From a virus (taxonomy: Duplodnaviria; Heunggongvirae; Uroviricota; Caudoviricetes): a stretch of DNA of 41,039 nucleotides. Shown one piece after another: positions 1 through 8,745 of the stretch. The position numbers were made by a program, and so were the translations under genes. The notes beneath the pieces are model-generated. The model was given only the letters and a program-made list of their open reading frames with translations, ran no database searches and was not told the origin of the DNA. The stretch covers positions 1-41,039 of the IMG/VR virus record IMGVR_UViG_648276644_000012; one strand, written 5' to 3'. Within the stretch, counting starts at the first letter, position 1, and each line of letters starts with the position of its first letter.

Positions 1-1158
1 ATGCTCACCGTTAAGCAGATTGAAGCAGCAAAGCCGAAAGAAAAACCATACCGCCTACTCGATGGTAATGGCCTGTACCTTTATGTCCCTGTGTCAGGGA
101 AAAAGGTATGGCAGCTTCGCTACAAGATTGACGGTAAGGAGAAAATCCTGACCGTCGGAAAATATCCGCTTATGACTTTGCAAGAGGCAAGGGATAAAGC
201 ATGGACTGCGAGGAAAGACATCTCGGTTGGCATCGATCCGGTAAAGGCGAAAAAGGCTTCGTCTAACAACAATTCCTTTAGCGCCATTTACAAGGAATGG
301 TACGAGCACAAGAAGCAAGTCTGGTCAGTAGGCTATGCAAATGAACTTGCAAAAATGTTTGATGACGACATTTTACCCATCATCGGCGGTCTTGAAATTC
401 AGGATATTGAGCCGATGCAACTACTGGAAGTAATCCGCAGATTTGAAGATCGCGGTGCAATGGAGCGAGCAAATAAAGCCCGCAGAAGATGCGGCGAGGT
501 TTTCCGTTACGCTATTGTCACTGGTAGGGCTAAATATAACCCGGCACCTGACCTTGCTGACGCCATGAAGGGATACCGCAAGAAGAACTTCCCGTTTCTT
601 CCTGCAGACCAGATCCCTGCATTCAACAAAGCACTGGCAACATTTTCAGGGAGCATCGTATCGCTCATTGCGACTAAAGTTTTGCGCTACACAGCCCTAA
701 GAACGAAAGAGCTTCGCTCCATGCTATGGAAGAACGTCGATTTTGAAAACAGGATTATCACCATCGACGCCAGTGTGATGAAGGGTCGAAAAATTCATGT
801 GGTTCCTATGTCAGACCAGGTGATTGAACTTCTCACTACGCTAAGCTCAATCACTAAACCAGTGTCAGAGTTTGTTTTTGCCGGGCGCAACGATAAGAAG
901 AAGCCAATTTGCGAGAACGCTGTACTGCTTGTGATCAAACAAATCGGCTATGAAGGTCTGGAAAGCGGTCACGGATTCAGGCATGAATTCAGCACGATTA
1001 TGAACGAGCACGAATGGCCTGCTGACGCTATTGAAGTGCAACTGGCACATGCCAACGGCGGATCTGTGCGCGGGATTTACAACCACGCTCAGTATCTCGA
1101 TAAGCGCAGAGAAATGATGCAGTGGTGGGCGGATTGGCTTGATGAAAAGGTGAAGTGA
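1..1158 (+). CDS. intS: Tyrosine integrase, P4 family (IntS-like, 385 aa)
   Basis: N-terminal arm-binding type sequence MLTVKQIEAAKPKEKPYRLLDGNGLYLYVP; C-terminal catalytic motifs HGFRHEF and Y in IYNHAQYLDKRR; length equals E. coli KpLE1 IntS; symbol assigned from context and recollection. Confidence 0.85.
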   Translation: MLTVKQIEAAKPKEKPYRLLDGNGLYLYVPVSGKKVWQLRYKIDGKEKILTVGKYPLMTLQEARDKAWTARKDISVGIDPVKAKKASSNNNSFSAIYKEWYEHKKQVWSVGYANELAKMFDDDILPIIGGLEIQDIEPMQLLEVIRRFEDRGAMERANKARRRCGEVFRYAIVTGRAKYNPAPDLADAMKGYRKKNFPFLPADQIPAFNKALATFSGSIVSLIATKVLRYTALRTKELRSMLWKNVDFENRIITIDASVMKGRKIHVVPMSDQVIELLTTLSSITKPVSEFVFAGRNDKKKPICENAVLLVIKQIGYEGLESGHGFRHEFSTIMNEHEWPADAIEVQLAHANGGSVRGIYNHAQYLDKRREMMQWWADWLDEKVK

Positions 1159-1190: not shown

Positions 1191-1219
1191 CTTGCAATCC
1201 AGTGCAAGACTTTGTTTTT
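1191..1219 (+). terminator. Rho-independent terminator after int
   Basis: Hairpin CTTGCA-N6-TGCAAG followed by ACTTTGTTTTT. Confidence 0.5.
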
Positions 1220-1535
1220 CTAAGTTTTTCTCACATCACCGCACAATAATCAAACTAACCATAACACTCTTCGTTGATAATGACCTGACGGATATCATCA
1301 TGTACGTGACTGAGATTGGAGCAATAAGGCTCTTGTCGATTGACACACTATCTTCAACTAGTTCTGCTGCTGGAGATAGAAGCCCATAGTGCACTTACGA
1401 TAAAATACTGTGCGAGAACACAATATAATCATAGTAAAAATCAGATCAACTTCAAAACACGCTGCTTATCCATTGATCAACAGAATCATGCTGTTAAAAT
1501 TAATCCTATTACTACACTTAACTTAGGTATCTTTA

Positions 1536-2576
1536 ATGTCTATAAGAAATGGAAATCGTCTAGAATTCCTAGACTCTTTGCGTGGACTTGCAGCCCTGAT
1601 GGTTGCATGTGCACATTTCATAGAGCGAACACCATTGCATAACAGTTTTTTATTTAAGCATGTTAACTTTGGTCAGGTTGGTGTTGTTTGCTTCTTTGTG
1701 TTAAGTGGCATGGTAATACCTTACAGCCTAAAGGAAGGGAAAAGAGCGATATCCGGGTTCATTATATCAAGGTTTTTTAGACTATATCCCGCTTACTGGT
1801 TTTCAGTATTTCTGGCGGCCTTTACTTTTTTGTTTGTAACTCATAGACCACTTGATATAAGAACTCTGTTGTCTAATATTACCATGCTTCAATCTTTACT
1901 GAGATCTCCAGATATGTTTGGTGTTTATTGGACGCTAATAATTGAGTTGTTCTTCTATGCTTCCTGTGCGTTTCTTTTCAAAGTAAATTTATTAAAGAGT
2001 AAGGTTTCTTTATTTTTAATTTCTATAGGACTTATTGCAACCGCTCTTGCTTTCTCATACGTGAGATTCGTTCTTGATAAAAAAGTTCCTGTGGCAATAC
2101 CGCTAGCTATGTCATTAATGTTCTTTGGTAGCTTATGGCGTTCAGTGAGCATTGGGATTGCATCGAGATCAGAAAGAAATATGTGCATTGTATTTTTAAT
2201 AACATTCCTAGTGGCGATTGCTCCGATTTGCTTAATGTCCTACAATAAAGACTATGGGCATGGGGAAAATGCTTCCTCCTATATTGCTAGCTATCTTACA
2301 GGCATAGTATTGACGCTATTGCTCACTACACGGGTAAAATTGAATGTAGGATTATTGGTTTTCCTGGGATCGATAAGTTACTCTGTATACTTGATTCACC
2401 CATTCTTTTTAGAGATTGTATCTGTCAGTATAGACATGGACACAGATTTTAATTTTATTATTTTTGTTTTATACCTATTAGCTACGATCGCACTAGCAAC
2501 TATTTCTTATAAGGTAATTGAAAAACCATCTATAAATATAGGTCACAGGCTTAGGAAGATCGCACTAGCAAGCTGA
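1536..2576 (+). CDS. Acyltransferase family 3 (AT3) membrane protein, O-antigen acetyltransferase (Oac-like)
   Basis: N-terminal LEFLDSLRGLAALMVACAHF motif typical of AT3; multiple hydrophobic TM segments over 346 aa; AT-rich gene at integrase-proximal moron position as in Sf6 oac. Confidence 0.75.
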   Translation: MSIRNGNRLEFLDSLRGLAALMVACAHFIERTPLHNSFLFKHVNFGQVGVVCFFVLSGMVIPYSLKEGKRAISGFIISRFFRLYPAYWFSVFLAAFTFLFVTHRPLDIRTLLSNITMLQSLLRSPDMFGVYWTLIIELFFYASCAFLFKVNLLKSKVSLFLISIGLIATALAFSYVRFVLDKKVPVAIPLAMSLMFFGSLWRSVSIGIASRSERNMCIVFLITFLVAIAPICLMSYNKDYGHGENASSYIASYLTGIVLTLLLTTRVKLNVGLLVFLGSISYSVYLIHPFFLEIVSVSIDMDTDFNFIIFVLYLLATIALATISYKVIEKPSINIGHRLRKIALAS

Positions 2577-2590
2577 CATATGACATGAAT

Positions 2591-2618
2591 CCCCAGCTTA
2601 GTTCTGGGGATATTTTCT
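2591..2618 (+). terminator. Rho-independent terminator after AT3 gene
   Basis: Hairpin CCCCAG-N7-CTGGGG followed by T-rich ATATTTTCT. Confidence 0.5.
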
Positions 2619-2741
2619 GGTTATATAATACAATCCGAACTTACACCGAGAGCAAAAATCAATTATATAAGCATACTGTATCATTCATATTACTTTTACG
2701 CTAGGCTCAAGTATCCAATGATCAATAACAGACAAAAAATA

Positions 2742-2757
2742 CTGTATGTGTATACAG
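2742..2757. promoter_or_regulatory. Candidate LexA (SOS) box CTGT-N8-ACAG
   Basis: taCTGTATGTGTATACAGag is a close match to the E. coli LexA consensus TACTGTATATATATACAGTA; sits ~150 bp upstream of the next ORF. Confidence 0.4.
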
Positions 2758-2905
2758 AGTCAGTGATATTTTTTCTGCTGCTCAATGATCATTTCCGATC
2801 TTCCCACTTCTAAATTTATCCTCATGATGTTATTATCATTAAATTTATTTTAGGGGTAGTCACATGAGATATATTGCATTGTTTTTCTTTGCTCTTTCAC
2901 TGTAG

Positions 2906-3184
2906 ATGAATTGGACAATAAAAATGATAAAGTATAGAGCTGGTATAGATGGTTTAAGAGCAGTCGCTGTTGTGATGTTTCACGCTTTCCCAAGCGCATT
3001 TTCTGGAGAGTTCAATGGGTTTGATTTATTTTTCATAATATCTAGCCTTTTAATTTCAAGTATTATTTTTAAAAATTTAAATAGCGGTAAATTTTCTTTT
3101 TCCGATTTTTACTTAAGAAGGATTAAGCGGATTTTTACACTCTTACTCAGATCATATATAAGATTAGATTGCAAGTCTAGTTAG
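2906..3184 (+). pseudogene. Truncated N-terminal fragment of an OafA-type AT3 acyltransferase
   Basis: 92-aa ORF with AGIDGLRAVAVVMFHAF...GFDLFFIIS...FKNLNSGKFSFSDFYLRRIKRI matching only the first ~2 TM helices of AT3 proteins, then stop; an SGNH ORF with TM anchor follows 85 bp later. Confidence 0.5.
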
Positions 3185-3268
3185 TGGTTGGCTGAATAAT
3201 TTTCTCAATTCGTTGATTTGAAGCGTAAATATATTTTTAACCTTAAACCTTATTAAAAGGAAAATGCA

Positions 3269-3964
3269 ATGAAGTCAAAACAAACAAATAGAAAGTCTCA
3301 AGCAAATAAATATTTGGCAATGCTGTTTATTCTGATTGCAATAGTTATTATAGTATTGTCTGTTCGTTCAATTAGAAATTATTTATCTCAAAAAAAAGTT
3401 AACGACTTTCAGGCTGTGATGCTAGATTTTAAAAAAATGAATGCTAATCAAGCTGACGGCGACATTGTGGTTTATGGCGACTCGCTCATACAAGGAATGT
3501 CACCATATGGGTTAAACTTTAAATATGTTAATATGGGGGTCGGAGGATACTCTATACATCAGATCCTAACTCTATCAGAAAATTATGGGGCGTCTGGATA
3601 TAAAGCTGCGATAATTGAAGGTGGAGTTAACGATGCGATGGGTGCGAAAACCGAAGAGGAAATATTTGATGATTATGACAAACTGCTTAAGAGTGTATCA
3701 AAGGTTGATAATATTTATGCATTAAAAGTTTTGCCAATCATAAGCGGGGCAAGAAAAGACGTAGACCATGTCAATTCAAGAATAAGCATGATTAACTCTA
3801 TTATTGATAGAACATGTAGTCGCATAGTTAACTGCAATATAATAGAAGTTCCTGCAGATTTTTTATCTGATAAAAAATCTGAATTGTACTTTGATGATGG
3901 AGTGCATTTAAATAAAAATGGCTATGCCGTTTGGATGAGAGAGATTAATAAACATGTGAAGTAA
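3269..3964 (+). CDS. Membrane-anchored SGNH/GDSL hydrolase (esterase/acetyltransferase partner domain)
   Basis: N-terminal TM helix LAMLFILIAIVIIVLSV; SGNH blocks VVYGDSLIQG (block I), GGVNDA (block III), DDGVHLNKNGY (block V); own SD AAGGA before ATG. Confidence 0.75.
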   Translation: MKSKQTNRKSQANKYLAMLFILIAIVIIVLSVRSIRNYLSQKKVNDFQAVMLDFKKMNANQADGDIVVYGDSLIQGMSPYGLNFKYVNMGVGGYSIHQILTLSENYGASGYKAAIIEGGVNDAMGAKTEEEIFDDYDKLLKSVSKVDNIYALKVLPIISGARKDVDHVNSRISMINSIIDRTCSRIVNCNIIEVPADFLSDKKSELYFDDGVHLNKNGYAVWMREINKHVK

Positions 3965-3969
3965 AAGAT

Positions 3970-3989
3970 GGCCGCATTGCGGCCTTTTT
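3970..3989. terminator. Bidirectional terminator between convergent SGNH and tailspike genes
   Basis: GGCCGC-ATT-GCGGCC hairpin followed by TTTTT. Confidence 0.55.
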
Positions 3990-6227
3990 CTACCAGGAAG
4001 CATCAATGTAAAATATTGGTGAGGCTGTAGTAGATCCATTAATTGTTATCGACCCGGTTGATGCGCTTATTGTTGCCATCGCCATACCGTAAGATATTCC
4101 ATCAGCAGTGAACGGTACAGGGACATTTTTTGTTACTGTTGGTCTACACCACCTTGGCAGCGTTAGAACAGTATTACCATTCGCAAATGAAGTGGCTGCC
4201 AGTTTAATATTAATTGAATTGGCAGTTAAACTTGACGGTGCCTGTACTGTTACGTTTGTTCCAGCCCACCATTGAACAGCTGCTCTTGGCGTGTAATCAA
4301 CACGCGACCACCAGTCGATAATGGCAGAGCAGATAATTTCCGCATACAGACGATACCCTAACTGGCTTTGGTGAATGTCATCACGCAGAAGTGGGTCGTA
4401 TTGCGTATTGAAATACTCTGGATATGGGGCCGGGAGCTGGTGAGTTGTTGTTACACAAATGACGTTATTGCCATATTTCATCATCTGGCGTTTACCAGCT
4501 TCTCGCAACTCTGCGACACCGTCGTAGTTAGAAGATGGCTGGCCAGCCCCTCCAATAAATGACTGGCTATACCACATCCACGGCTCAACCCAAACAGGGA
4601 TACGACCAAGGCCATTGCAATATAAGACAAACTCATCTATCAATGACGCCATATAATCGCCGTTTTGGTTTGCCTGCCCTTCGTTAGTTCCGGCAACCAT
4701 AATAACGATGTAAGCATCACCCGGCCCCTGAGCCTTCAGGAGATCTAACTGTTGCCTCATTGTCTGTCCGGCAACTGCCTTGTTTACAATGCTATGTGAA
4801 CGGTGGCCGTTCGCTCCATCCATTAATTGCGGAATGTACGAGCTGAACGCGGAAATGAAATCCTCAGCTGTACTATCACCGTGGATAAGGATATTAAGTG
4901 GAGGCTTACCGTGCACGCCATTATCAGAGGTGTAGCTGCATAATCCAGTTACACGCGCAGAACCTCCAGATGCCGTGGTCAGTGCAACAAACCCAACTTC
5001 GTATACATCCCCTACATCAGCAGTATCAAAGGGCAAACGTATCCCAACGCCATTCATCGTTATCTGCGCCCAGTTTTTACCTTGCAGTGATACGCCAACG
5101 GTTGCTTTGCCCGGGGCGTACGACAGTAAACCTCCTGGCAGCGGGAATGGAGTTCCTTCTGCTACTGGACCACCAATTGGTTTCTGTCTATAAGACCACT
5201 GTGTAGCACCTGGTGCCCCATAGAACATCATCCAACCACCAGAGCATCGCAGAACAATCCCAACTTCTGAGGCGGCCTGAGATTCCATACGAATATGTGC
5301 AGAAATATGCTCTCCAATATCTATTGGTGCGAACAGGCCTGTTGTACGGTTAGTAGTTAAGGGGAAGATAGCTGCGCTATCTGAGGATATGGTGACTTCA
5401 CCTTCATAGAAGAACGTGTCACCATTTATGGAATAAACTTTACAATCTGACCATTCCACTCGCTTCATGCGAATAGGGTTTCGGTTGAGGATAGCCTGCT
5501 TAGCCAGGTAATCCACTTCCCCACCGGTTGCTTTAAAGTTCAGGTGCGTAAATTCAAACGTACCCTCCCCCTCGTACTGCAACGATTTAAACAGTGAGTA
5601 CAGATCACTGTCGAATCTCAGGGTGACATTTTTATCAATGATTACTTTACTGTTCGCAAGGAAAGAAGCGTTAGCAGCTGTAGACGGTACGGTGTACACC
5701 ATCTGATTTTTTGAATGATTAGAGAAGTAAACATACCCGTAGGTCGCAACACTATCGCGCCATGCCTGGACTACGTTAGAATTAACATAGCTTGGGATTT
5801 TTGTGATCGAATGCAAAACAAGGTCTTCCTGTGAGATAGCTCCATTTACCAGATTAACACCGCCTTGAGATGCAAGATCTTGCCTGAGTTGGTCAGGGTC
5901 ATACTTCAACACATTCGGAAAATAGAACTGCTGCGAACCATACGCATCATAAACAGCCATAGAATGCCCTTGCACAGTTACGAACTTGGCAATTTGTCCG
6001 TTATATACCGGATATCCAGCAGCGTTAATGATGATTGGTTGCGAAACAGGAACGTGAGAACCGTCTTCGTTCTCCACATAAACCTGAATCTGGTTTTCAG
6101 GATTTACCGGGTCAGTGTCAATTTTACCGATATAAATTTTTCCATTGGCAACCGCTTTAAAAGAACGCGCCATAGTGAAGAGTTGCGAAGGCATCGATAC
6201 GATCACATTGGCTGTAATGTCTGTCAT
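3990..6227 (-). CDS. gp9: Tailspike: P22 gp9-type N-terminal head-binding domain plus divergent receptor-binding region containing an SGNH esterase domain
   Basis: First ~115 aa [11 protein letters not shown]...NVLKYDPDQ match P22 tailspike N-terminus as recalled; aa ~443-640 carry SGNH blocks [30 protein letters not shown]. Confidence 0.85.
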
Positions 6228-6285: not shown

Positions 6286-6309
6286 AAAAAAACCCAGCCG
6301 AAGCTGGGT
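6286..6309 (-). terminator. Rho-independent terminator downstream of ant (minus strand)
   Basis: ACCCAGC-CGAA-GCTGGGT hairpin followed on the minus strand by a run of 7 T. Confidence 0.6.
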
Positions 6310-6327
6310 CGTTGCGTTGGTTATCTG

Positions 6328-7230
6328 TCAGTAGTTATGTACTGAAGGAGGTAATTCTTTATTCTTAAGTCTCATCCATGCGGAAAGATTCGTTGGTCCG
6401 TCTGGCTCATTAATATCAACATCTCGTGTGTGATTGATTAAAACGTCTCTCGCCATTCCGATAACATACGAGAACTCATGGCCATAGTCGTAGCATCTGC
6501 CGGAATAGTTCGATTGAATTTGTTTTAGCGCCAGATACAGTTCGCGGAATAATGCCTGTGAGCGGTTGGCATAATCCCATAACCATACAAGGCTGTTTGC
6601 TTCTTTTGCAGAAAGCTCGTTGGTTTTCTTCTCTTGTTTGCCGATAAATTCACCTTCAAGCACTACCCTGTGGATGTACTCTACGGCTTGCGGTATCTGA
6701 GATGCATCAAGCTCTTCAATACTTTCCACATTGAAACGCTGATGAATCATTGCATAAGCTTCTGGGTACATTAGATGCTTTTTGCTGACTAGCATATTTA
6801 CAGCATCACGAAGCGGAGTCCTGTCATCAACAGATGTTTTCTTACGTGCATTTTCTGCCTTTCCCTTTGTCCAGTAGTCATGCAGTACAGTAAAGCATTC
6901 TTCCTGGTACTGAATCAGTTTATCACGGATGTCAGCACGAACTTTCTCAGGGTTGATGCTGAACAGCCATCCATTTAACTTCTTCAAAGGAAGGCAGAGT
7001 AGCTTACGAAGCTTCCCATCAGCGGCAACCATGTTCATATGAACACAGTTGAATTTGCTAATCTGCTTCATGAGTTTTGTTTGCTGCGTTGACCAGCTCA
7101 TTCCAAGGTTTTCAACGATTGGCTTCATCGCAACATATGCAACTCCGGCAGCCATGGCGGTGATAATTTGCTGACCGTTGAATGGTACATAAGAGGTGTT
7201 CACTGCTTCTAAAATTGCTATACTATTCAT
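6328..7230 (-). CDS. ant: Antirepressor Ant (P22 immI)
   Basis: [21 protein letters not shown]... antirepressor N-terminal domain; follows arc as in P22. ORF extends to 7296 only via a TTG codon, so the ATG at 7230 (300 aa) is taken as the start. Confidence 0.8.
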
Positions 7231-7298
7231 GTTGGTTTTTCTCCACGAATTTACTGACAACCGAAGCCCTGACTGTTCCCGCAGTTGGGGCTTCAACT

Positions 7299-7476: not shown

Positions 7477-7523
7477 AGGTCCACCGTGGACCTATTGAGA
7501 ATATAGTAGAGTGCTTCTATCAT
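7477..7523. promoter_or_regulatory. immI operators: Omnt (7477-7493) and Oarc (7502-7523) with Pant/Pmnt
   Basis: AGGTCCACCGTGGACCT 17-bp palindrome (Omnt) and reverse complement of ATGATAGAAGCACTCTACTATA (Oarc) in the 90-bp arc-mnt divergent intergenic region. Confidence 0.7.
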
Positions 7524-7550
7524 GTCAATACACTAACTTGGAGTGATGGC

Positions 7551-7802
7551 ATGGCTAGAGATGATCCGCACTTTAACTTCCGTATGCCTATGGAAGTAAG
7601 GGAGAAATTAAAATTCAGGGCGGAGGCGAATGGGAGATCAATGAACTCCGAGTTGTTACAAATCGTCCAAGATGCTCTATCAAAACCATCGCCTGTGACT
7701 GGATATCGCGACGATGCAGAACGACTCGCTGATGAGCAGTCAGAGCTTGTTAAGAAGATGGTGTTTGATACGCTGAAGGATTTGTACAAAAAACCCACCT
7801 GA
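7551..7802 (+). CDS. mnt: Mnt repressor
   Basis: MARDDPHFNFRMPMEVREKLKFRAEANGRSMNSELLQIVQDAL... matches P22 Mnt as recalled. Confidence 0.9.
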   Translation: MARDDPHFNFRMPMEVREKLKFRAEANGRSMNSELLQIVQDALSKPSPVTGYRDDAERLADEQSELVKKMVFDTLKDLYKKPT

Positions 7803-7818: not shown

Positions 7819-8238
7819 TTAGTCTTGCTTTGTTGATGGTATAAGAGATGCGTTTGCCTCTTTTGGCTTCAAGGTATACATCCCACCATTAAAAGGATCT
7901 ACAGCAAGCCAACCAATTAACCCACCAAACACAAGGTTTCCACCAATATACCAGCCATTAGCATTGGCTTTGATTGGCAGGGTAACTGGTTCGTACCCAT
8001 CCTTTTCCATAGTGATCTGGTAGCTCTTTTTGCCAAAATAACTACCATCTGACTTGGCAAGAGTTACTCCTTGCGGGGTCTTACCTTGCGCAACAATCAC
8101 GCCTGATTCGTCTTTTACCTTAAAGCTCGCACCGGAAGGATTGCTGTTCACTTGCACAAGCTGCGTTTCGTCACCAACAATAGTTGCGCACCCAGATAAC
8201 AATATAGCGCCAGCAACGACGCCAATAATCCTCTTCAT
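7819..8238 (-). CDS. Lipoprotein with PEGA-like domain and C-terminal glycine-zipper segment (moron at sieA-equivalent position)
   Basis: Signal peptide with lipobox LLSGC; PEGA-like pattern VQVNSNPSGASFKV...GKTPQGVTL...KDGYEPVTL; glycine-rich hydrophobic tail GGNLVFGGLIGWLAV. Start taken at second ATG (MKRIIGVV). Confidence 0.55.
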   Translation of the reverse strand: MKRIIGVVAGAILLSGCATIVGDETQLVQVNSNPSGASFKVKDESGVIVAQGKTPQGVTLAKSDGSYFGKKSYQITMEKDGYEPVTLPIKANANGWYIGGNLVFGGLIGWLAVDPFNGGMYTLKPKEANASLIPSTKQD

Positions 8239-8355
8239 ATCAATTTCCATATTTAAAAAACCGGAAACATCCTAATGACAAACCATTCAAATATGAAGTA
8301 GGCAAAAGATGTTTACTTTTTTCATGGTATCCTGCTCAAAACTAAGGAGGTTGGC

Positions 8356-8745
8356 GTGAAGCAATTTCTTACTGTTATGTTCTTATTCATATCTTTTGGG
8401 GCTACAGCAGAGTGCTGGGTCGTTGGAGATATGCGCGGAATAAGCTATTCAGAACGAAATAATTTCCATCCGGAAGAAGATGGTTTTAGTGGAACATTCA
8501 TCATTAAGACAAACGGTGAAGATGCCAGCATCACATATTCTGGGACAGATGCGGGCGGCATGGCTTACAAAGCATTGTCTAAAAACTCCATCATAGGAAT
8601 CGGCGCGAATGGCGAAACTCAACGCGTTATCGACTCATGGGTAATACATCCTACTGGAACAGTTTTAATGTCAAAAACCATTTCCGGTTATGGAAATATG
8701 GATTCAACCAAAGCTTTTGTTGGAAAAGTAAAAAGAAAATGTTAG
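8356..8745 (+). CDS. Secreted small protein, paralog A (signal peptide, conserved ECW...FVGxV...C frame)
   Basis: GTG start 5 nt after strong SD AAGGAGG; signal peptide MKQFLTVMFLFISFGATA; paralogous to the protein at 32481-32885. Confidence 0.6.
   Translation: MKQFLTVMFLFISFGATAECWVVGDMRGISYSERNNFHPEEDGFSGTFIIKTNGEDASITYSGTDAGGMAYKALSKNSIIGIGANGETQRVIDSWVIHPTGTVLMSKTISGYGNMDSTKAFVGKVKRKC

What the first reader, a model, noticed from the sequence alone, without database searches (positions are those of the whole stretch)
3990..6227. Tailspike with a P22-type head-binding domain and an embedded SGNH esterase domain
The first ~115 aa match the conserved P22 gp9 N-terminal domain, but the receptor-binding portion is unrelated to the P22 endorhamnosidase and carries all SGNH catalytic blocks (GDS at aa 450-452, GTNE at 512-515, DDIH at 616-619). 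That predicts a receptor-modifying esterase (for example O-antigen deacetylase) rather than a glycosidase. It lies beside phage-encoded O-antigen acetyltransferase genes, so acetylation state may be both the receptor determinant and the lysogenic-conversion target.
Basis: partly seen in the sequence, partly recalled or inferred. Interest (0 to 1): 0.7.

Follow-up and report, generated by a model that had tools for sequence, protein, structure and literature searches.

The report
Esterase tailspike of an O88 coliphage
A P22-like prophage of E. coli carries a tailspike whose receptor-binding part is built around a predicted acetyl-esterase instead of the usual sugar-cutting beta-helix, and it is found only in strains with the O88 surface antigen; this adds a member to the known class of deacetylating phage tailspikes and is not a new principle.

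Summary
Window 3990-6227 is one ORF on the minus strand (745 aa). Residues 1-113 are a P22/Sf6-type head-binding domain (Pfam E 7e-67).

The roughly 600-aa receptor-binding module is shuffled among several phage tail adaptors. In 5,426 complete E. coli genomes, all 12 carriers lie among the 25 with the O88 wzy gene. Both O88 gene clusters read encode two acetyltransferases. The most likely function is an O88 O-antigen deacetylase, as in phage G7C gp63.1. No activity has been shown.

The neighbouring low-GC insert holds an AT3 acyltransferase, an AT3 fragment and a membrane-anchored 231-aa SGNH protein. Other carriers lack this insert, so coupling to the tailspike remains open.

Verdict: new member of a known kind, moderate interest.

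The parts
3990..6227 (-). Tailspike gene, 745 aa plus stop
   Evidence: ORF list and translation. Identical to database protein P0001, 'phage tailspike protein'. Full-length match to phrog_17606, 'unknown function'.
5889..6227 (-). aa 1-113: P22/Sf6-type head-binding (virion attachment) domain
   Evidence: PF09008 E 6.8e-67. Sf6 gp14 7sg7 aa 1-121 nearly identical, P22 gp9 E 1e-51. DNA 88-94% identical to CUS-3, HK620 and Sf6 over this part only.
5811..5888 (-). aa 114-139: linker or neck; recombination boundary between adaptor and receptor-binding module
   Evidence: Low pLDDT with short helices. Homology to other P22-like tailspikes ends here. Homologues with other N-terminal adaptors align from about aa 116-140 onward.
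5451..5810 (-). aa 140-259: mixed alpha/beta domain of unknown role
   Evidence: pLDDT about 85-93, alternating helices and strands. D158 and D198 are conserved. No family match.
4908..5450 (-). aa 260-440: all-beta sandwich (jelly-roll or lectin-like); presumed carbohydrate-binding domain preceding the esterase, as in CE2 esterases
   Evidence: All-strand secondary structure, pLDDT >90. Foldseek hits to CE2 esterases 2waa and 2wab and to YxiM 2o14 (on established knowledge, beta-sandwich plus SGNH proteins) over 420-440 alignment columns, and to jelly-roll or galectin folds 1mac and AAL. Domain boundaries are inferred.
4293..4898 (-). aa 444-645: SGNH hydrolase domain. Catalytic codons: S452 at 4872-4874, G487 at 4767-4769, N515 at 4683-4685, D616 at 4380-4382, H619 at 4371-4373
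3993..4265 (-). aa 655-745: C-terminal beta-sandwich domain
   Evidence: pLDDT about 95, strands only. The last 59 aa are 81% identical to a fragment in the tail-fibre locus of phage vB_EcoM_ESCO9.
3970..3984 (.). Bidirectional terminator hairpin shared by the convergent tailspike gene and the small SGNH gene
   Evidence: GGCCGCATTGCGGCC followed by T-runs on both strands.
3269..3964 (+). 231-aa SGNH protein with a hydrophobic N-terminal stretch (aa 15-32, read by eye as a membrane anchor; no TM predictor was run). Motifs: GDS 70-72, GGVND 118-122, DGVH 210-213. Probable lysogenic-conversion enzyme
   Evidence: PF13472 E 9e-14. Sequence and motifs. 79% identical over the best 199-aa local alignment (72% over 225 aa) to the SGNH part of a fused 595-aa AT3-SGNH protein beside the same tailspike in strain SRY149. 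Homologues lie beside a tailspike in 6 of 7 contexts.
2906..3184 (+). 92-aa N-terminal fragment of a second AT3 acyltransferase (remnant)
   Evidence: PF01757 positions 2-81 of 326, E 2e-4, below cut-off. Sequence read.
1536..2576 (+). 346-aa AT3-family acyltransferase (probable O-antigen O-acetyltransferase) with its own terminator at 2589-2611
   Evidence: PF01757 E 2.3e-30. phrog_3333 'O-acetyltransferase' E 5e-56. Terminator. The region 1201-4000 has 30-38% GC against 42-50% in the flanks.
1..1158 (+). Prophage integrase (IntS-type; argW tRNA-Arg site in related lysogens)
   Evidence: PF00589, PF22022 and PF13356. Same arrangement beside tRNA-Arg and yfdC in PigCaeca_1, SRY149 and PEC301.
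6328..7296 (-). P22 Ant-like antirepressor gene upstream of the tailspike, with a terminator at 6291-6310
   Evidence: PF10547 and PF10548. Terminator.

Best explanation
The gene encodes the tailspike of an HK620/P22-like temperate podovirus of E. coli. The first 113 residues dock the (by analogy trimeric) spike onto the tail, as in P22 and Sf6. The remaining roughly 600 residues are a portable receptor-binding module made of an alpha/beta domain, a lectin-like beta-sandwich, an SGNH esterase domain (Ser452-His619-Asp616 triad, with Gly487 and Asn515 as the oxyanion hole) and a C-terminal beta-sandwich. I propose that the module recognises the E. coli O88 O-antigen and hydrolyses O-acetyl esters on it without cutting the sugar backbone. 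This would give reversible, receptor-modifying binding that lets the virion work down through the O-antigen layer to the outer membrane, as shown for the SGNH tailspike gp63.1 of coliphage G7C. Shown here by computation: the domain composition, the invariance of the catalytic residues, the predicted SGNH fold, the module shuffling and the exclusive association with O88 genomes. Inferred: esterase activity, the acetyl group as substrate, absence of backbone cleavage, and trimeric state. The adjacent low-GC insert (AT3 acyltransferase plus membrane-anchored SGNH protein) is most simply a lysogenic-conversion cassette that alters O88 acetylation in the lysogen. It would travel with the tailspike because both are specific for the same O-antigen.
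Confidence: 0.7

Rival explanations
1. Bifunctional spike: the SGNH domain is an accessory deacetylase, and a second, unrecognised depolymerase site in aa 140-440 cleaves the O88 backbone. The phage would then behave like classical P22-type depolymerising phages after removing a blocking acetyl group.
For: About 300 well-folded residues before the SGNH domain have no assigned function. They contain five conserved acidic residues. Foldseek finds a GH16 glucanase jelly-roll (1mac) among the matches.
Against: The model has no beta-helix. There is no glycosidase or lyase family hit in Pfam or PDB. There is no GH16 ExDx(x)E motif. The same beta-sandwich plus SGNH pairing occurs in CE2 esterases, where (on established knowledge) the sandwich binds carbohydrate.
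Confidence: 0.12
2. The SGNH domain acts on an ester other than an O88 O-antigen acetyl group, for example on colanic acid, enterobacterial common antigen or a lipid. O88 specificity would then come only from the binding domains.
For: SGNH enzymes have broad substrate ranges, and lipases, thioesterases and peptidoglycan esterases appear among the fold matches. The O88 acetylation state could not be verified.
Against: The strict O88 association of the whole module. Two acetyltransferase genes in each of the two O88 clusters read. All characterised SGNH tailspikes act on the acetylated surface polysaccharide that is their receptor.
Confidence: 0.1
3. The SGNH domain is a catalytically silent binding scaffold, and the spike is a pure adhesin.
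For: The Pfam score of the query is sub-threshold. No activity data exist.
Against: All five catalytic and oxyanion residues are invariant across 46 sequences at 25-97% identity while mean column identity is 36%. That pattern is expected for catalysis, not for a scaffold.
Confidence: 0.06

Closest known systems
Coliphage G7C tailspike gp63.1 (PDB 4QNL), an O-antigen deacetylase
   Different: There is no detectable sequence similarity in the receptor-binding part. gp63.1 ranks only 45th among the fold matches, behind many cellular SGNH enzymes. The N-terminal adaptor differs (PF18668-type branched adaptor in an N4-like lytic phage, against the P22 head-binding domain in a temperate phage). The target serotype differs (4s/O22-like against O88). 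Activity is shown for gp63.1 and only predicted here.
P22 gp9, Sf6 gp14 and HK620 gp9 tailspikes
   Same: The N-terminal head-binding domain is near-identical to Sf6 over aa 1-121. The gene position in the prophage is the same, the recombination boundary at about aa 115 is the same, and the virion backbone is 96% identical to HK620.
   Different: Those spikes carry a right-handed beta-helix endoglycosidase. This one has no beta-helix and carries an SGNH esterase, so it would modify rather than cut the receptor.
SGNH-domain receptor-binding proteins of Klebsiella prophages (PMC13123978), Shigella phages Moo19 and B2 (PMC11654681), Pectobacterium phages PP99 and Possum, Acinetobacter phage Aristophanes
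   Same: All belong to the growing class of deacetylating phage receptor-binding proteins, which is common in temperate phages. Esterase activity has been shown on p-nitrophenyl acetate or on polysaccharide for several members.
   Different: The hosts, adaptors and domain orders differ. No P22-type head-binding fusion or O88 specificity was found in the papers searched.
CE2 carbohydrate esterases (PDB 2WAA, 2WAB, 2WAO)
   Different: CE2 enzymes are soluble bacterial plant-cell-wall enzymes, not virion proteins, and share only 12-15% identity.
AT3-SGNH O-antigen acetyltransferases OafA, OafB and GtrC (for the neighbouring genes)
   Same: An AT3 membrane domain plus a periplasmic SGNH domain with a linking transmembrane helix. 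Prophage-borne and sited next to the tailspike, as in BTP1 (PMC9558356).
   Different: Here the two halves are separate genes with a decayed AT3 fragment between them. The fused form, with a related SGNH part, occurs beside the same tailspike in strain SRY149.

Membership tests
P22-type tailspike (Pfam Head_binding PF09008) | N-terminal head-binding domain of about 110 aa | tested here: met
   E 6.8e-67 over aa 1-113, full profile. 7sg7, 2vky and 1lkt match.
P22-type tailspike (Pfam Head_binding PF09008) | Encoded in a P22-like genome after the ejection-protein genes and the immI (ant) region, next to int and attP | tested here: met
   Inj_translocase, Ant and integrase are neighbours. 96% identity to HK620 virion genes.
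P22-type tailspike (Pfam Head_binding PF09008) | Right-handed parallel beta-helix endoglycosidase as the receptor-binding part (feature of P22, Sf6 and HK620, not of the Pfam domain) | tested here: not met
   No sequence match beyond aa 121. The model shows alpha/beta, beta-sandwich and SGNH domains, with no beta-helix.
SGNH/GDSL hydrolase superfamily | Block I GDS with the nucleophile Ser, block II Gly, block III GxN, block V DxxH | tested here: met
   S452, G487, N515, D616 and H619 are present and invariant in 46 homologues. Blocks I-III align with the GDS, sGdT and GgND motifs of TesA (catalytic blocks I-III on established knowledge) at E 3e-6.
SGNH/GDSL hydrolase superfamily | Three-layer alpha/beta/alpha flavodoxin-like fold | tested here: met
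SGNH/GDSL hydrolase superfamily | Score above Pfam's curated cut-off for PF13472 or PF00657 | tested here: inconclusive
   The query scores 19.6 bits against a cut-off of 32.9. 38 of 46 homologues match at E <= 0.01, best 1e-13.
SGNH/GDSL hydrolase superfamily | Esterase activity dependent on the Ser-His-Asp triad | not testable with these tools
   Needs purified protein with p-nitrophenyl acetate or O88 LPS, plus S452A and H619A mutants.
Deacetylating (esterase) tailspikes, G7C gp63.1 type | SGNH domain inside a virion receptor-binding protein | tested here: met
   The SGNH domain is fused to the P22 head-binding domain, and homologous modules are fused to four other tail adaptors.
Deacetylating (esterase) tailspikes, G7C gp63.1 type | Specific evolutionary relationship to gp63.1 beyond the shared superfamily fold | tested here: not met
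Deacetylating (esterase) tailspikes, G7C gp63.1 type | Host range tied to one O-antigen type that carries O-acetyl groups | tested here: inconclusive
   O-type specificity is met: 12 of 12 carriers are O88. Acetylation is only inferred from two acetyltransferase genes in each of the two O88 clusters read.
Deacetylating (esterase) tailspikes, G7C gp63.1 type | Removes O-acetyl groups without cleaving the polysaccharide backbone; activity required for infection | not testable with these tools
   Needs NMR or MS of treated O88 polysaccharide and phage genetics.
AT3(-SGNH) O-antigen acetyltransferases (neighbouring genes) | AT3 (PF01757) membrane domain | tested here: met
   The 346-aa protein matches at E 2.3e-30 over the full profile and matches phrog_3333.
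AT3(-SGNH) O-antigen acetyltransferases (neighbouring genes) | Periplasmic SGNH domain tethered by a transmembrane helix, fused to the AT3 domain | tested here: inconclusive
   The SGNH protein with an N-terminal hydrophobic anchor (read by eye) is a separate gene here. A fused 595-aa version whose SGNH part is 79% identical over the best 199-aa local alignment exists in SRY149. Most homologues are stand-alone, and three contexts have no AT3 nearby.

The most novel reading that the evidence does not exclude
The virion esterase and the adjacent membrane-anchored SGNH protein (with or without the AT3 partner) form a matched pair acting on the same O-acetyl groups of the O88 antigen. The most novel version is that the small SGNH protein is a periplasmic O-antigen deacetylase. 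It would strip from the lysogen's surface the acetyl groups that the esterase tailspike needs. This would be superinfection exclusion, and protection of released progeny, by receptor destruction from within, and not the usual addition of a blocking group. Supporting hints: homologues of the small SGNH gene lie convergent with a tailspike gene in 6 of 7 contexts read. In 4 of 7 contexts the tailspike is itself SGNH-type, with two unrelated architectures. Three contexts have no AT3 donor nearby. G7C-type phages cannot infect non-acetylated mutants.
Probability: 0.15. Interest if true: 0.7.

Novelty: new member of a known kind. Interest (0 to 1): 0.4.

Why it matters
Deacetylating tailspikes are a recently recognised alternative to polysaccharide-cutting spikes. 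Most characterised examples come from lytic N4-like phages or from Klebsiella prophages. This finding places one on the best-understood podovirus chassis (P22, Sf6, HK620), where tail structure, LPS-triggered ejection assays and genetics are already available. That makes it possible to ask directly how deacetylation, instead of cleavage, gets a virion through the O-antigen layer. It also gives a concrete, testable serotype assignment (O88) for a receptor-binding module that PHROGs lists as 'unknown function'. This is useful for host-range prediction and for O88-specific detection or engineering. Finally, it points to a family of small membrane-anchored SGNH genes that sit beside tailspike genes and may be a new type of lysogenic-conversion function.

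Tried and rejected
1. Sequence search of the whole protein, and of a 46-sequence profile, against PDB found only N-terminal adaptor matches plus weak TesA hits. There was no hit to the receptor-binding part of gp63.1.

2. Search of 50,697 phage records found no sequenced phage carrying this module. The best match was an Aeromonas phage phiA047 hypothetical protein at 28% identity.

3. I tested whether an acyltransferase always accompanies the esterase tailspike, and rejected the idea. PEC301, A30 and GPEC1240 have none. The eps15-like prophage of strain 602687 has none. Distant P22-like esterase-tailspike contigs have none.

4. I tested whether the small SGNH gene is exclusive to esterase tailspikes, and rejected the idea. 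L018 and L021 tailspikes have unrelated receptor-binding parts with no SGNH motifs or Pfam match (their fold was not examined), and in an Aeromonas prophage the gene is not next to a tailspike.

5. The tailspike SGNH domain and the neighbouring SGNH protein are not recent duplicates; the similarity is only at motif level (hhalign probability 38%).

6. A GH16-like catalytic motif in the beta-sandwich is absent.

7. The O88 polysaccharide structure (Torgov 1996) and Casjens & Grose 2016 are not held. The E. coli O-antigen review has no O88 text beyond the reference.

8. NCBIfam has no model for any of the three proteins.

9. The catalytic-site geometry in the model could not be inspected, because coordinates are not exposed to the script tool.

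Full report
**1. The observation**

Window 3990-6227 is a single ORF on the minus strand. It encodes 745 aa, with ATG at 6227-6225, a GGAG Shine-Dalgarno sequence 8 nt upstream, and a TAG stop at 3992-3990.

Pfam Head_binding (PF09008) covers aa 1-113 at E 6.8e-67. Sequence matches to solved structures are confined to aa 1-121: Sf6 gp14 (7sg7) is nearly identical, and P22 gp9 matches at E 1e-51. At DNA level, 32 phage records (CUS-3, HK620, Sf6, epsilon34 and others) match only the first 335-348 nt of the gene. This is the classical adaptor/receptor-module recombination boundary.

The motifs are present. GDS is at 450-452 and DDIH at 616-619, as stated. GTNE is at 513-516, one residue off the stated position.

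**2. Whether the SGNH signal is real**

The query alone is below Pfam's GDSL_2 cut-off (19.6 vs 32.9 bits), so I tested it through relatives. A search with aa 116-745 returned 85 proteins. In an alignment of 46 of them (25-97% identity, mean column identity 36%), the following are invariant: G450 D451 S452, N482 A486 G487, G513 T514 N515, D616 and H619. These are blocks I, II, III and V of the SGNH superfamily.

Thirty-eight of the 46 match PF13472 (best E 1e-13). A profile of the domain alone matches E. coli thioesterase I (TesA) at E 3e-6, pairing GDS with GDS, AGxT with sGdT and GTNE with GgND.

Foldseek matches CE2 esterases and YxiM over about 430 alignment columns. On established knowledge these are beta-sandwich plus SGNH proteins. 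Foldseek also matches jelly-roll or galectin folds for the preceding domain. The model contains no beta-helix.

The resulting anatomy is:
- head-binding domain, aa 1-113
- linker, aa 114-139
- alpha/beta domain, aa 140-259
- lectin-like beta-sandwich, aa 260-440
- SGNH domain, aa 444-645
- C-terminal beta-sandwich, aa 655-745

**3. Context**

The window is an HK620/P22-like prophage, about 96% identical to HK620 and vB_EcoP-611R6 over the virion and replication genes. Upstream of the tailspike lie an Ant-like antirepressor and the ejection-protein genes. Downstream lie the integrase and, in related lysogens, tRNA-Arg (argW) and yfdC.

Between the integrase and the tailspike sits a low-GC insert, 30-38% GC against 42-50% in the flanks. 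It contains three elements:
- A 346-aa AT3 acyltransferase (PF01757 E 2e-30; phrog_3333 'O-acetyltransferase') with its own terminator.
- A 92-aa N-terminal fragment of a second AT3 gene.
- A 231-aa SGNH protein with an N-terminal hydrophobic stretch that I read as a transmembrane anchor (no predictor was run), and with GDS, GGVND and DGVH motifs.

The SGNH gene and the tailspike gene converge on one bidirectional terminator at 3970-3984.

**4. The module is portable and O88-specific**

The roughly 600-aa distal module occurs behind five different N-terminal tail adaptors: P22 head-binding, TSP1/gp66-type, T7 tail-fibre N-terminus, tail-collar and Calx-beta. The hosts include E. coli, Enterobacter, Shewanella, Buttiauxella and Pseudescherichia.

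An exhaustive search of 1.84 billion cluster representatives finds 244 related clusters at E <= 1e-3 and 42 at E <= 1e-30. Most are 600-1,100 aa, the size range of tail proteins. BFVD holds many phage tail proteins with the same fold combination. PHROGs already contains this exact family (phrog_17606, full-length match) labelled 'unknown function'. No sequenced phage isolate carries it.

In 5,426 complete E. coli genomes, nine carry the full P22-type gene at 96.5-98.6% identity. Three more (NADC1036, 602687, HN257) carry the module in other prophage backbones. Two lysogens examined, SRY149 and PigCaeca_1, have an O88-family wzx/wzy O-antigen cluster.

A search with the O88 wzy gene finds 25 genomes at 99% identity or more, and all twelve carriers are among them. 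The hypergeometric p is 4e-30, or 2e-17 if only seven carriers are counted as independent. XJ55 is also O88.

The receptor is therefore almost certainly the O88 O-antigen. Both clusters read encode the rfbBAC genes, a reductase, manBC and two cytoplasmic acetyltransferases. O88 is cited as a 6-deoxy-L-talose-containing antigen (PMC3104164). I could not read the primary structure paper to confirm O-acetylation.

**5. Mechanism**

The best-supported reading is an O88-specific deacetylating tailspike. The beta-sandwich and SGNH domains bind the O-polysaccharide. Ser452, His619 and Asp616 hydrolyse an O-acetyl ester. Repeated cycles of binding and modification would move the virion towards the outer membrane, where the P22-type needle and ejection proteins act.

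Three precedents support this:
- G7C gp63.1 deacetylates its host O-antigen, leaves the backbone intact, and is essential for infection; non-acetylated mutants are resistant (PMC10743462).
- The esterase tailspikes of Shigella phages Moo19 and B2 depend on oacD acetylation (PMC11654681).
- SGNH receptor-binding proteins are prevalent in Klebsiella prophages, and two have been shown to be active (PMC13123978).

The domain composition, residue conservation, predicted fold and O88 association are computed results. The activity, the substrate and the trimeric state are inferences.

The rival explanations are a second depolymerase site in aa 140-440 (0.12), a non-O-antigen ester substrate (0.10) and an inactive scaffold (0.06).

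**6. The neighbouring conversion genes**

The insert DNA occurs in only 3 of 5,426 genomes, all of them carriers of this tailspike. In SRY149 the same tailspike (97% identical) sits beside a fused 595-aa AT3-SGNH protein. The SGNH part of that protein is 79% identical, over the best 199-aa local alignment, to the window's stand-alone SGNH protein. Its AT3 part is only 26% identical to the window's AT3. That gene occurs only in the three SRY clones.

Other carriers lack any such gene: PEC301, A30, GPEC1240, strain 602687, and distant P22-like esterase-tailspike contigs. The insert is therefore not required for the tailspike to function.

The small SGNH protein belongs to a family of mostly stand-alone proteins of 212-245 aa. 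Its context was read in seven places:
- In six of seven it lies next to, and convergent with, a tailspike gene.
- In four of seven that tailspike is itself SGNH-type. Two have this module, and two have an unrelated architecture with the SGNH domain at aa 185-376.
- In two of seven the receptor-binding part shows no SGNH motifs or Pfam match.
- In three of seven there is no AT3 gene nearby.

The pattern fits a serotype-specific conversion cassette that travels with the receptor-binding module. Whether the small SGNH protein adds or removes acetyl groups cannot be decided here.

**7. Comparison and novelty**

Functionally the spike resembles G7C gp63.1, but it is not a sequence relative of it. 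It is a bona fide P22-type tailspike by its adaptor and genomic position, but it lacks the beta-helix glycosidase. It is a member of the SGNH superfamily by motifs and predicted fold.

SGNH receptor-binding proteins are an established and growing class that includes temperate phages. I therefore rate this a new member of a known kind. The specific points I did not find described in the papers searched are the fusion to the P22 head-binding domain, the O88 assignment, and the recurrent small SGNH gene next to tailspikes.

Interest is moderate (0.4). The finding offers a tractable chassis for studying how deacetylation drives O-antigen penetration, and a testable serotype prediction. The principle itself is already known.

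Noticed in passing
window 3269-3964 (+); loci L015-L023: The 231-aa membrane-anchored SGNH protein belongs to a family of mostly stand-alone proteins of 212-245 aa in E. coli, Enterobacter and Aeromonas prophages. In 6 of 7 contexts read, its gene is convergent with and directly beside a tailspike gene. In 4 of 7 that tailspike is itself SGNH-type, with two unrelated architectures. In 3 of 7 there is no AT3 gene nearby. Its function (acetyl transfer or removal) is open.
   Followed up: partly
window 2906-3184 (+): A 92-aa ORF matches only the first roughly 80 positions of the AT3 acyltransferase profile. It is a decayed remnant of a second acyltransferase gene, lying between the intact AT3 gene and the SGNH gene. 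In strain SRY149 the equivalent locus is a single fused 595-aa AT3-SGNH gene (L004 8270-10057), so the cassette has undergone fission, fusion or replacement.
   Followed up: partly
window 1201-4000: The insert between the integrase and the tailspike has 30-38% GC against 42-50% in the flanking phage DNA. This points to foreign origin. The DNA is found in only 3 of 5,426 complete E. coli genomes.
   Followed up: yes
L013 (Escherichia phage vB_EcoM_ESCO9, OM386654.1) 2320-2677: The last 59 aa of the tailspike are 81% identical to a short stretch in the tail-fibre locus of a phi92-like myovirus, partly inside an 82-aa ORF annotated 'endo-N-acetylneuraminidase'. It looks like a leftover of an earlier module exchange.
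   Followed up: partly
L005 20627-21763 and L006 26309-27445 (O88 O-antigen clusters of SRY149 and PigCaeca_1): An ISEc1 (ISAs1-like) transposase gene sits between galF and the two acetyltransferase genes at the start of the O88 cluster in both lysogens. Whether it affects their expression, and hence O-acetylation, is unknown.
   Followed up: no
one search hits H40 and H41 (E. coli NADC1036: NZ_CP076267.1, 38,709 bp, and chromosome NZ_CP076264.1): The same receptor-binding module appears both in the chromosome and on a separate 38.7-kb replicon record of one strain. This could be an excised circular phage genome or a phage-plasmid assembled on its own.
   Followed up: no
L007 4400-4594 (E. coli A30): A truncated 'phage tailspike protein' pseudogene lies about 400 bp upstream of the intact esterase tailspike, next to an IS66 element in a degraded prophage at the bio/ybhB site. 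This suggests tailspike replacement by recombination.
   Followed up: no
window 7819-8250 (-), 8356-8745 (+), 7520-7798 (-): Three small ORFs between the antirepressor gene and the ejection-protein genes have no significant family match; the only hit is a weak PEGA match (E 0.004) for the 143-aa product.
   Followed up: no
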